Assembly: GCA_027340875.1 (NCBI GenBank)
Contig: DAIENX010000072.1
Location: 1-50,344, forward strand
Source of the DNA: Elusimicrobiota bacterium
GTDB lineage: Bacteria > Elusimicrobiota > Elusimicrobia > Elusimicrobiales > UBA9959
Length of the DNA: 50,344 nt
Reading direction: 5' to 3'
The notes beneath the pieces were generated by a model. That model was given only the letters and a program-made list of their open reading frames with translations, was not told the DNA's origin and did no database searches. How positions within the stretch are numbered: the stretch's first letter is position 1; every line of letters begins with the position of its first letter. Of the stretch, positions 16,053 through 17,428 are shown piece by piece. Made by a program: the position numbers and the translations under genes.

Positions 16053-17011
16053 AGAACCTCCTGGCCGCCCTGCTGCTGCTCGCCCCGGTCCTCTCCTCGC
16101 CGCTCAGCGCGGCCGATGCCCCGTCAAGGACCTATACGCTGAAGGACGGCTCCGCCCTGGAGTATTCCAGGCCGGGGCTATGGCATACCATAGGCTCCGG
16201 CCCGTCGGACTGGCGGACCTTTCTCAAAGACAGCTTCAGGAAGGAGAACCTGCCCTGGTTCGCCGCCATCGGCGCCTCCACGCTGTTCCTGATAGAGTAC
16301 GACCAGAAGATCTACGTTAATACCAGGCGCGCCGGCAGGAAGCTCGGCATCTCCAGCGCGGACAAGACAAAGACCTACCTGAAAGTGGGCGGCGTCTCCA
16401 TCTTTCGCGGCCCGAGCGATCTTGGGTCCGCTTTCTATTTTATCGGCGACGGTTGGCTGAACCTCGGCCTGTTCGGTTATTTCGAGATAGCCGGCCGCCT
16501 GAAGGACGACTGGCGCGCCCTGCAGACCGGCCACCAGCTGGCCGAGGGCCTTATAGTCACCGGCTTCACCACGCAGGTCATGAAGCGCATAAGCGGCCGG
16601 GAAACGCCGCGCGCCGCCACCGCCCCCCGGGGGGTGTGGCGGATGTTCCCTTCCTTCAAGGACTTCCAGTCCCACCGCACGCGTTACGACGCCTTCCCGT
16701 CAGGTCACCTCGCCACCTGCATGATGACGCTCACCGTCATAGCCGAGAACTATCCGGACAGGAAATATATCAAGCCGCTAGGCTACTCGCTGCTGGGCGC
16801 GCTCAGCTTTCAGATGGTGAACAACGGCGTGCATTGGGCCAGCGACTACCCGCTGGGGCTGGCCGTGGGATACGGGATAGGCAAGGCCATAGCCTCGCAC
16901 GGCCGCACGGCCGCGAGGCGGACAGCCGCGCCAGCGCCTTCCGCCCTGAGACTGGAGCCGTACTTCGGGCCCGAAGGCGCTGCCGGAGCCGCGCTGGCGT
17001 ACAGGTTTTAA
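16049..17011 (+). CDS. Exported PAP2-family phosphatase
   Basis: Signal peptide MKNLLAALLLL; KRISGRETP, FPSGH, HWASD motifs; ATGA overlap with cysS. Confidence 0.85.
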   Translation: MKNLLAALLLLAPVLSSPLSAADAPSRTYTLKDGSALEYSRPGLWHTIGSGPSDWRTFLKDSFRKENLPWFAAIGASTLFLIEYDQKIYVNTRRAGRKLGISSADKTKTYLKVGGVSIFRGPSDLGSAFYFIGDGWLNLGLFGYFEIAGRLKDDWRALQTGHQLAEGLIVTGFTTQVMKRISGRETPRAATAPRGVWRMFPSFKDFQSHRTRYDAFPSGHLATCMMTLTVIAENYPDRKYIKPLGYSLLGALSFQMVNNGVHWASDYPLGLAVGYGIGKAIASHGRTAARRTAAPAPSALRLEPYFGPEGAAGAALAYRF

Positions 17012-17056
17012 AAGAAGCGTCTTTTTTGCTAAAATATCCGGGTAGTACAACCGAAC

Positions 17057-17130
17057 GCGGGCGTGGTTCAATGGTAGAACGGGACCTTGCCAAGGTTCAG
17101 ACGAGGGTTCGATTCCCTTCGCCCGCTCCA
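17057..17130 (+). tRNA. tRNA-Gly(GCC)
   Basis: Cloverleaf GCGGGCG-TG-GTTC AATGGTA GAAC-G-GGACC TTGCCAA GGTTC-AGAC-GAGGG TTCGATT CCCTT-CGCCCGC-T-CCA; encoded CCA, U73. Confidence 0.97.
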
Positions 17131-17428
17131 AATTTTAAAACCGGCTTATTTATGCCGGTTTTTAAATTTGTCGCGGGCTCGGGAATGTTCTTATAGGGAA
17201 GCTCGCTGACGCTCGCTGTCGCCCGCTCCAAAAACTTAAAGACCGGCTTATTTATGCCGGTTTTTAAATTTGTCGCGGGCTCGGGAATGTTCTTATAGGG
17301 AAGCTCGCTGACGCTCGCTGTCGCCCGCTCCAGGTATTAAACCAACATAGGGCGTTGTTATCTGATCCGGGGCGAAGGGAATATTCCTTACGAAGAACGG
17401 TCGCTGGCGCTCCCTGTCGCCCGCTTCA
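17131..17428 (+). repeat. tRNA-linked tandem repeat, three ~100-bp units each ending in the tRNA 3' end
   Basis: Units 17131-17230 and 17231-17332 are near-identical; 17333-17428 is diverged; ends are TCGCCCGCTCCA, TCGCCCGCTCCA, TCGCCCGCTTCA. Confidence 0.9.

What the first reader, a model, noticed from the sequence alone, without database searches (positions are those of the whole stretch)
17112..17428. tRNA-Gly is followed by a tandem array that regenerates and also antisense-pairs the tRNA 3' end
Seen: after the tRNA come three units of 100, 102 and 96 bp. Each has four parts: a variable AT-rich segment, an inverted copy of the tRNA T-arm/acceptor 3' strand, a GCTCGCTGACGCTCGCTG-type motif, and a direct copy of the tRNA 3' end (TCGCCCGCTCCA). 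In unit 3, GGGCGAAGGGAAT (17370-17382) is the exact reverse complement of tRNA 17112-17124; units 1-2 carry the variant GCGGGCTCGGGAAT. Units 1-2 share a hairpin (AAAACCGGC-ttatttat-GCCGGTTTT in unit 1), while unit 3 has unrelated sequence in that slot, giving a repeat/spacer-like layout. In unit 1 the hairpin extends to a stem of about 30 bp (17112-17186) that would sequester the tRNA's last 19 nt. Known: integrative elements duplicate tRNA 3' ends, and tRNA-linked repeats exist (e.g. E. coli tyrT). Inference: a non-autonomous tRNA-targeting mini-element that inserts repeatedly and restores its target, or a device controlling tRNA maturation. No recombinase is encoded in the window.
Basis: partly seen in the sequence, partly recalled or inferred. 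Interest (0 to 1): 0.8.

Follow-up and report, generated by a model that had tools for sequence, protein, structure and literature searches.

The report
Mobile DNA hairpin behind tRNA genes
Behind a glycine tRNA gene lie three copies of a ~35-base hairpin core, each framed by an inverted and a direct copy of the tRNA's own tail; in related bacteria the same core also sits at non-tRNA sites between fresh duplications of local DNA, so it is likely a tiny gene-less mobile element, built like the unexplained "tRNA-linked repeats" of E. coli, and the enzyme that would move it is still unknown.

Summary
The array is real. Each unit has four parts: the tRNA trailer, an inverted copy of tRNA positions 58 to about 69, a conserved ~35-bp core, and a direct copy of positions 65-76. 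The supposed 'spacer' is the ordinary terminator-like trailer.

The core occurs in 55 of 79 genomes of this Elusimicrobiota family and in 0 of 143 sampled outside it, behind Gly, Thr, Trp and Cys tRNAs, at 0-3 units per tRNA-Gly(GCC). The arms follow the host tRNA (direct arm 133 of 133). The core also sits at 13 or more non-tRNA sites, several between 23-37-bp direct duplications, with empty orthologues, in both orientations. Its antisense strand carries a covarying tandem-GA, GCGNNAGC DNA mini-hairpin; a 14-base match lies in E. coli rtT repeats.

Best reading: a non-autonomous single-stranded-DNA hairpin element, likely inserting by nick and template switch. The enzyme is unidentified; a tRNA-adjacent UPF0213 GIY-YIG nuclease is a weak lead. 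The scan has noted this class before on other DNA (31 notes, at least 29 genomes). New variant of a known, unexplained kind.

The parts
17057..17130 (+). tRNA-Gly(GCC), intact, CCA encoded; position 58 = 17112, position 65 = 17119
17007..17035 (+). sigma-70-like promoter match upstream of the tRNA (consensus match only)
17137..17163 (+). Unit 1 trailer: terminator-like hairpin (9-bp stem, 8-nt loop, T run); the same hairpin follows the tRNA alone at an empty site in a relative. The tool's terminator scan did not list it on the + strand.
   Evidence: sequence; L161
17173..17186 (+). Unit 1 inverted arm (reverse complement of tRNA positions 58-72, with a 2-for-3 loop that reads GA opposite GAA on the minus strand)
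17187..17218 (-). Unit 1 core: TTC/GAA-type hairpin part, tandem-GA mini-hairpin at 17201-17216 (folds on the minus strand), and the constant G before the direct copy
17219..17230 (+). Unit 1 direct copy of tRNA positions 65-76
17231..17274 (+). Unit 2 trailer, a near copy of the unit 1 trailer with its hairpin (17242-17261)
17275..17288 (+). Unit 2 inverted arm
17289..17320 (-). Unit 2 core, GA mini-hairpin at 17303-17318
17321..17332 (+). Unit 2 direct copy of tRNA positions 65-76
17333..17369 (+). Unit 3 trailer, unrelated to units 1-2
   Evidence: sequence
17370..17382 (+). Unit 3 inverted arm, exact reverse complement of 17112-17124
17383..17416 (-). Unit 3 core, variant GA mini-hairpin at 17399-17414 with a compensatory C-G to G-C change
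17417..17428 (+). Unit 3 direct copy of tRNA positions 65-76, one mismatch (CCA lost)

Best explanation
The array is three copies of a ~35-bp gene-less hairpin core framed by copies of the tRNA's own 3' end, and the core is likely a non-autonomous mobile element that acts as folded single-stranded DNA and likely inserts by a nick followed by template switching, re-copying local DNA as it lands. Shown: the anatomy, host tracking of the arms, variable unit number, and filled and empty non-tRNA sites with direct duplications. Inferred steps: (1) the minus-strand GA mini-hairpin is the recognised part; (2) the core is joined to the first base of the 3' strand of a GC-rich stem (tRNA position 65, or a terminator's 3' strand); (3) resumed synthesis re-copies about 20-60 bp of target as a direct duplication, so the tRNA or gene end stays whole; (4) an inverted arm forms when the growing end snaps back on the stem, or is brought along from a tRNA-Gly donor whose arm then biases landing towards tRNAs with a similar T-stem; (5) arrays grow and shrink by slippage or unequal exchange between the direct copies (units 1 and 2), and the arms are rewritten from the host by conversion. 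The nicking enzyme is not identified; the tRNA-adjacent UPF0213 GIY-YIG nuclease is my leading candidate at about 0.25.
For: Mobility: 9 of 16 model hits in genome G006 lie at 7 non-tRNA sites. Clean direct duplications of 36 bp (L503), 37 bp (L506), about 35 bp (L504) and 23-25 bp (L225) flank the core. The orthologous sites of the window's own genome carry neither core nor second copy. One in-frame insertion in a coding region is exactly 51 nt longer than 6 empty homologues and carries a tRNA-Gly-type arm. One terminator carries the core with an arm in 4 loci and without one in 2. Host tracking: direct arm best matches the host in 133 of 133 first units, inverted arm in 111 of 133. On a tree of the neighbouring gene, host position 67 changes at least 3 times (7 on the best tree); the direct arm follows in 30 of 30 and the inverted arm in 29 of 30. 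DNA strand: the inner pair beside the GA tandem changes on both sides in 7 of 69 rows; the loop is G..A in 184 of 186 units but GNRA in only 3. GCGTTAGC melts at 69.5 C as DNA, while r(GCGAAAGC) melts at 39 C (PMC13037366, passages). The core lies sense to flanking genes at some off-target sites and antisense at others. In haloarchaea, Omnitrophota and E. coli the same hairpin is on the other strand relative to the tRNA.
Against: No enzyme is linked to this core: none lies beside the filled sites I read, and no RT, IS110 or Ssn-type gene was found in the own genome (92% complete). The empty sites come from other species at 65-85% identity, not from near-identical strains. The loop census is biased, because most loci were found with patterns that fix those loop letters. 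ViennaRNA gives the isolated units no significant folding on either strand (z from +1.0 to -1.2); such models are said to miss mini-hairpins. Trailers fold better on the transcribed strand in 94 of 126 units, which fits RNA-level selection as well as mutation bias. Kin are not independent in any count. No match was found in viral contigs or phages, so no vehicle for horizontal spread was seen.
Confidence: 0.6

Rival explanations
1. An RNA-level device: read-through transcripts let the inverted arm capture the tRNA 3' strand and slow maturation, or units are cut out as small RNAs like E. coli RttR or RrB.
For: A transcript that runs past the arm is predicted to lose the cloverleaf (acceptor pair probability 0.999 when it ends at 17165, 0.001 at 17190). 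No terminator-like hairpin lies before the arm in most non-GCC hosts, so those arms are probably transcribed. Trailers fold better on the sense strand (94 of 126). Three E. coli TLRs are transcribed, processed and bind Hfq and CsrA (PMC8144298, passages).
Against: The forced cloverleaf costs only 2.8-8.3 kcal/mol. At hosts of the window's sequence type a terminator-like hairpin precedes the arm in 18 of 18. CCA is kept in only 22 of 57 copies. 10 of 26 tRNA-Gly(GCC) loci have no unit. The core occurs antisense to genes and at non-tRNA sites.
Confidence: 0.12
2. Scars of tyrosine- or serine-integrase islands: each unit is a collapsed attL/attR pair and the core is a conserved arm-binding site.
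For: Integrative elements duplicate tRNA 3' ends (established knowledge). Islands and insertion sequences follow tRNA-Gly(GCC) in some relatives. Serine recombinase genes abut tRNAs in the own genome.
Against: The direct copy starts at position 65 and lacks the T-loop. Off-target duplications of 23-37 bp at unrelated gene ends share no common core site. The inverted arm is copied from local DNA, including terminator loops. No unit that I read enclosed an integrase, and none was found in viral contigs.
Confidence: 0.08
3. Retro-mobility: a group II intron reverse transcriptase copies read-through RNA of the unit at a nick, which gives variable-length duplications and occasional inversions.
For: Variable long duplications and inversions are typical of target-primed reverse transcription (established knowledge). 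Group II intron ends sit just before the arm in relatives (L513 by Rfam RF00029; L514, L174 and L164 by resemblance only).
Against: No RT was found in the own genome, nor an m1A58 methyltransferase that could explain a stop at A58. The conserved fold is a DNA-type mini-hairpin on the strand that is not transcribed at tRNA loci.
Confidence: 0.1
4. A host-selected DNA structure (for example a protein-loading or fork-protection site at heavily transcribed genes), spread only by replication slippage and conversion with no dedicated enzyme.
For: The core is kept in 39 of 42 congeners. Mini-hairpins occur at phage priming and promoter sites (PMC13037366, passages). Template switching at short inverted repeats makes hairpin-capped inverted duplications in yeast (PMC11507740, passages).
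Against: Patchy, lineage-specific landings at arbitrary gene ends (7 sites in G006, none in the own genome) look selfish. Many orthologous tRNA loci are empty.
Confidence: 0.1

Closest known systems
E. coli tRNA-linked repeats (TLRs; tyrT 178-bp repeats, RtT RF00391). PMC8144298, passages seen; Egan and Landy 1978 and Rudd 1999 not seen, known only through that paper
   Same: Tandem units behind a tRNA gene, each ending in a copy of that tRNA's 3' end; function unknown. In the tyrT locus (L404) each unit also holds a 10-nt inverted arm of the T-stem/acceptor strand and the hairpin CGAGCGYCAGCGAG, a 14-base match to this core.
   Different: The direct copy is 12 nt from position 65, not 18-19 nt. 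The core is ~35 bp and on the opposite strand. No RtT match in this genome. Dispersed non-tRNA copies with duplications are seen here; the passages I read report none for TLRs.
Ssn nucleases with NTS/SRM repeats (Chenal et al. 2025, PMC11893778; Results parts 1-2, section 10 and Discussion read)
   Same: A strand-specific ssDNA hairpin and a small single-domain GIY-YIG protein. The same 16-mer caps hairpins with an SRM-like tag in up to 18 of 80 GTDB-wide loci, on the tagged strand (loose one-mismatch tag, and the search pattern favoured such hits).
   Different: No CGTC tag; 5 copies rather than hundreds; the nuclease here matches UPF0213 structures and is not flanked by this core; SRMs are not described there as copying their target.
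REP/REPIN elements with RAYT, and IS200/IS605 (recalled; also discussed in PMC11893778)
   Same: A short non-autonomous ssDNA hairpin moved in trans.
   Different: The genome's one Y1 gene is flanked by another palindrome. These systems are not known for 20-60-bp target duplications or target-copied inverted arms (recalled).
tRNA-targeting integrative elements (attL/attR; recalled)
   Same: The tRNA is restored and a displaced 3' fragment lies downstream.
   Different: No integrase or cargo, an inverted arm, and unrelated off-target sites.

Membership tests
E. coli TLR | Located directly behind a tRNA or rRNA gene, 1-5 per locus | tested here: met
   0-3 units at tRNA-Gly(GCC) loci; up to 4 matches in metagenome loci
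E. coli TLR | Unit ends in 18-19 bp identical to the upstream RNA's 3' end | tested here: not met
   Direct copy covers positions 65-76 (12 nt) after a constant G in 131 of 133 units; positions 58-64 occur only inverted
E. coli TLR | Match to Rfam RtT (RF00391) | tested here: not met
   0 matches in the own genome, control rings in E. coli; none in the window
E. coli TLR | Inverted arm plus GA hairpin as in the tyrT unit (my comparison, not a published criterion) | tested here: met
   model R1 scores the E. coli core only 15.5 bits, E 0.17, so homology of whole units is not shown
E. coli TLR | Transcribed and processed to a small RNA | not testable with these tools
   No RNA run was available to lay
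Ssn/NTS (SRM) | CGTC-tagged ATTCC...GGAAT hairpin | tested here: not met
   The palindrome comes from the tRNA T-arm; no tag on either strand
Ssn/NTS (SRM) | cd10448 GIY-YIG gene flanked by the repeat | tested here: not met
   Small GIY-YIG genes match UPF0213 structures 1zg2 and 1ywl and are not flanked by this core; CDD itself could not be searched
Ssn/NTS (SRM) | Strand-specific ssDNA cleavage near the hairpin | not testable with these tools
   Needs an in vitro assay
REP/RAYT | Y1 transposase gene flanked by the repeat | tested here: not met
   The single Y1 gene (C111) is flanked by a different palindrome
Integrase attachment scar | Displaced fragment includes the T-loop or anticodon crossover core, with integrase or cargo between the copies | tested here: not met
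CRISPR-like repeat/spacer array | Constant repeats with unique acquired spacers | tested here: not met
   The variable part is the local trailer or terminator and is often repeated identically
MITE | Own terminal inverted repeats and short fixed target duplication | tested here: not met
   No fixed ends; duplications of 23-61 bp; arms are target-derived

The most novel reading that the evidence does not exclude
tRNA-linked repeats, from E. coli rtT to these units, are one widespread class of transposase-free mobile DNA: a ~35-base GA mini-hairpin that a small UPF0213 GIY-YIG nuclease nicks as single-stranded DNA and host repair synthesis pastes in, writing direct and inverted copies of the target, with the captured inverted arm then serving as a base-pairing guide to the next tRNA.
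Probability: 0.25. Interest if true: 0.85.

Novelty: new variant of a known kind. Interest (0 to 1): 0.58.

Why it matters
E. coli's tRNA-linked repeats have been known since 1978 with no known function (PMC8144298). This family gives that class evidence of mobility: filled and empty non-tRNA sites with long target duplications, arms rewritten from the local target, and a shared DNA mini-hairpin. That turns the question into simple tests of oligonucleotide cleavage and insertion. If the small GIY-YIG nuclease is the mover, it would give the UPF0213 family a function and define a very small mobile element that needs no transposase.

Tried and rejected
A fixed 7-nt staggered cut (arm ends at 58, direct copy starts at 65) fits tRNA sites and one terminator but is not general: one off-target arm is 25 nt and several sites have none.

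An RT stop at m1A58: no GCD14-family methylase and no RT found in the own genome (92% complete).

An aminoacylated minihelix: CCA kept in 22 of 57, and the arm is the complement of the 3' strand, not a copy of the tRNA 5' strands.

IS110: none found. IS91: the search rang nowhere, not even in controls, so it is uninformative.

Viral vehicle: 0 matches in viral contigs with two patterns; phage records gave only a 22-nt tRNA match.

The 12-mer GAGCGNNAGCGA across the phylum was near its reversed control in most genomes and was not used.

The bare 16-mer is not diagnostic: the script flagged 13 of 80 GTDB-wide loci as near a tRNA; 24 of 120 metagenome loci were insertion-sequence ends. In one search, 8 of 141 rows were dropped for arm matches under 8 of 11; five rows had false hosts from that insertion-sequence gene.

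Expression: no RNA holder listed.

A GA-for-TC excess in diverged arms (24 of 38 against 14 of 57) is noted but not relied on: GG is enriched too and kin are not independent.

Literature: ten searches found no description of this family, of TLR mobility, or of YhbQ/UPF0213 with such repeats. Subscription papers (Rudd 1999, Egan and Landy 1978) and all supplements were not seen and may bear on novelty. A paper on elements at tmRNA genes that I recalled was not held.

Full report
1. Observation. The window is contig C20 of a 2.8-Mb, 92% complete genome; titled GTDB records with the same loci are Elusimicrobiota. tRNA-Gly(GCC) lies at 17057-17130. Behind it are three units spaced 100, 102 and 96 bp; units 1 and 2 are 97% identical; the unit 3 arm is the exact reverse complement of 17112-17124. 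The fold-back 17112-17186 is far beyond chance (z -8.7). Contigs of three runs that may be the source of the assembly show about double depth on the stretch shared by units 1 and 2 and cross their junction; one run shows an ambiguous 102-nt skip.

2. Anatomy. In tRNA numbering, a unit is: trailer, inverted copy from position 58 outwards, a core of about 35 bp, zero to three bases ending in G, then a direct copy from position 65. The own genome has five units: three here, one behind tRNA-Gly(CCC) and one behind tRNA-Thr(GGT). The hairpin taken for a spacer is the tRNA trailer. It follows the tRNA alone in L161 and follows the last unit in L163 and L164. A group II intron end lies directly before the arm in L513 (Rfam); that such introns insert behind terminators is recalled.

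3. Distribution. A covariance model from 69 units matches 55 of 79 genomes of the family, 39 of 42 in the genus, and 0 of 143 sampled genomes of other families. Of the 30 best tRNA-Gly(GCC) loci, 4 lack downstream DNA; of the other 26, 10 have no unit, 10 have one, 4 have two and 2 have three (cut-off 28 bits). Hosts are Gly (GCC, CCC, TCC), Thr (GGT), Trp and Cys, all with similar T-stem 3' strands.

4. The arms are written from the host. Of 141 distinct first units, 133 have a recognisable arm. The host is the unique best match for the direct copy in 133 of 133 and for the inverted arm in 111 of 133; at position 67 the direct copy agrees in 114 of 114 Gly units. On a tree of the gene behind tRNA-Gly(CCC) (30 rows, most found through the core, so occupancy is biased) the host base changes at least 3 times, 7 on the best tree; the direct copy follows in 30 of 30 and the inverted arm in 29 of 30. 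Either insertion recurs or conversion keeps rewriting the arms; I cannot separate the two.

5. The core moves without a tRNA. This is the main addition. In G006, 9 of 16 model hits lie at 7 non-tRNA sites. Over all loci read I count at least 13 distinct non-tRNA sites, orthologues grouped. At L503, L506, L504 and L225 the core sits between direct duplications of 36, 37, about 35 and 23-25 bp with no clear arm; at L496 there is a 25-nt inverted arm of local DNA; at L502, L010 and L222 a short snap-back palindrome. The own genome's orthologous sites lack both core and second copy for all seven tested and for those, at 65-85% identity. The insertion in L222 and L233 keeps the reading frame, is 51 nt longer than the homologues in the own genome and five relatives, and carries a tRNA-Gly-type arm, so a donor arm can travel. 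One terminator holds the core in six loci, with an arm matching that locus's own loop in four and without an arm in two, always joined at the foot of the 3' strand. Many landings duplicate a gene end, so the gene stays whole. Orientation is sense to the flanking genes at L501, L503, L504, L493, L225 and L222 and antisense at L506, L496, L193 and L010 (L193 read by eye).

6. The signal is on the antisense strand and looks like DNA. On the minus strand the 16-mer reads GCGAGC-GTCA-GCGAGC: two pairs, a GA/GA tandem, two pairs and a G..A loop. One pair changes on both sides in 7 of 69 rows, and unit 3 of the window carries that change. In 186 distinct units the loop is G..A in 184 and GNRA in 3 (biased by my search patterns). 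GCGNNAGC is the known extra-stable DNA mini-hairpin: GCGTTAGC melts at 69.5 C, r(GCGAAAGC) at 39 C, and standard models do not predict it (PMC13037366, abstract and passages). The two mismatches in the unit 1 fold-back also read GA opposite GA or GAA on the minus strand. Against this: isolated units show no significant folding in ViennaRNA, and trailers fold better on the sense strand in 94 of 126 cases.

7. Enzyme. Nothing mobile is encoded in the window among the families searched (36 ORFs scanned, not all). The genome's Y1 gene has its own palindrome. No RT or IS110 was found. An 83-aa GIY-YIG protein of UPF0213 type occurs in 59 of 79 family genomes. It lies within 450 nt behind tRNA-Gln(TTG) in 23 of 30 genus loci and behind a tRNA of four kinds in 8 of 28 loci from other genera. 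In 10 of 29 genus loci a different hairpin module ending in a tRNA-Gly-like tail precedes it, against 2.4% of random windows. By genus, core and nuclease are both found in six, both missing in five, and the nuclease alone is in two. Against: the five double-negative genera have small genomes; genus g12 has modules (L171, L177) without a detected nuclease; six core-bearing genomes lack a hit; the gene never flanks this core. It is a lead only, and the idea came partly from earlier scan notes.

8. Mechanism. Shown: sections 1-5 and the covariation in 6. Inferred: recognition as ssDNA; a nick; joining of the core to the foot of a stem's 3' strand; resumed synthesis that re-copies 20-60 bp; optional snap-back that makes the arm; array turnover by slippage. 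Template switching at short inverted repeats with hairpin-capped intermediates is documented in yeast (PMC11507740, abstract and passages); I use it as an analogy only. RNA consequence: a transcript ending at the first terminator-like hairpin keeps the cloverleaf, while longer ones are predicted to lose it by 2.8-8.3 kcal/mol. This may be a cost more than a function.

9. Comparison. E. coli TLRs are 22 repeats behind tRNA and rRNA genes, ending in 18-19 bp of the upstream RNA, with no known function (PMC8144298, passages). The tyrT units also hold an inverted arm and a 14-base match to this hairpin, on the sense strand. Haloarchaeal and Omnitrophota loci show the same plan with the hairpin flipped. 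So this works like a TLR but fails the 18-19-bp and RtT tests, and whole-unit homology is not shown. It resembles Ssn/NTS (PMC11893778, outline and named sections) in its hairpin tip but is not a member.

10. Novelty. The class is known and unexplained, and this scan has noted it often (31 notes in at least 29 genomes), including in Elusimicrobiota and including target-duplicating hairpins in archaea; these are unchecked AI notes, not support. Ten literature searches found no description of this family or of TLR mobility; subscription papers and supplements were not seen. Gene labels for off-target sites and the group IIC label are recalled from translations and come from no call. Verdict: new variant of a known kind; interest 0.58.

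Noticed in passing
own genome C39:7251-9160 (L252): A 497-aa serine recombinase gene reads into the antisense 3' end of a tRNA-His; a second tRNA-His, about 150 nt of the gene's end and the flanking gene are repeated in inverted, diverged form on the other side. A real inversion-duplication or a chimera of two strains. Similar recombinase tails follow tRNA-Ser (C46), Glu (C22) and Asp (C44).
   Followed up: partly
own genome, behind tRNA-Arg C1, Val C44 and C65, Gln C62 and C73, Ala C5 and C106, Leu C111, Ser C27: At least three other hairpin-module families follow these tRNAs, most ending in a copy of the local tRNA end; GA hairpins lie on the sense strand in some and on the antisense strand in others.
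   Followed up: partly
L307, L354 and 22 more metagenome loci: The exact 16-mer overlaps the stop codon of a small ORF of no Pfam family near a conserved element end, after which the flanks vary; ISL3 transposase domains were confirmed beside it in L307.
   Followed up: partly
L513:39-117, L514, L174, L164: Group II intron ends or relics lie directly behind the terminator-like hairpins of these units in several relatives; only L513 was confirmed by Rfam.
   Followed up: partly
L196, L217, L494, L507-L509; own genome C69 near 6600 and C104: A conserved structured leader with a strong terminator, present at two loci per genome, has no Rfam match and is a repeated landing site of the core.
   Followed up: no
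own genome C111:16347-16682 (L034): A Y1/RAYT-like transposase gene flanked by several copies of a GGTACC-centred palindrome, which also occurs behind tRNA-Val(GAC).
   Followed up: no
L167, L173: The whole tRNA-Gly(GCC) gene is duplicated in tandem in two relatives; in L167 the junction lies at an inverted arm.
   Followed up: no
L446 (G210): The only one of 45 genomes of a neighbouring family with the small nuclease has it directly behind tRNA-Ser and a hairpin module ending in the tRNA's tail.
   Followed up: partly
own genome C73 and C108; C24 and C35: Duplicated loci (the two nuclease copies are 90% identical) suggest that the bin holds some DNA of a sister strain (5.5% contamination).
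   Followed up: no
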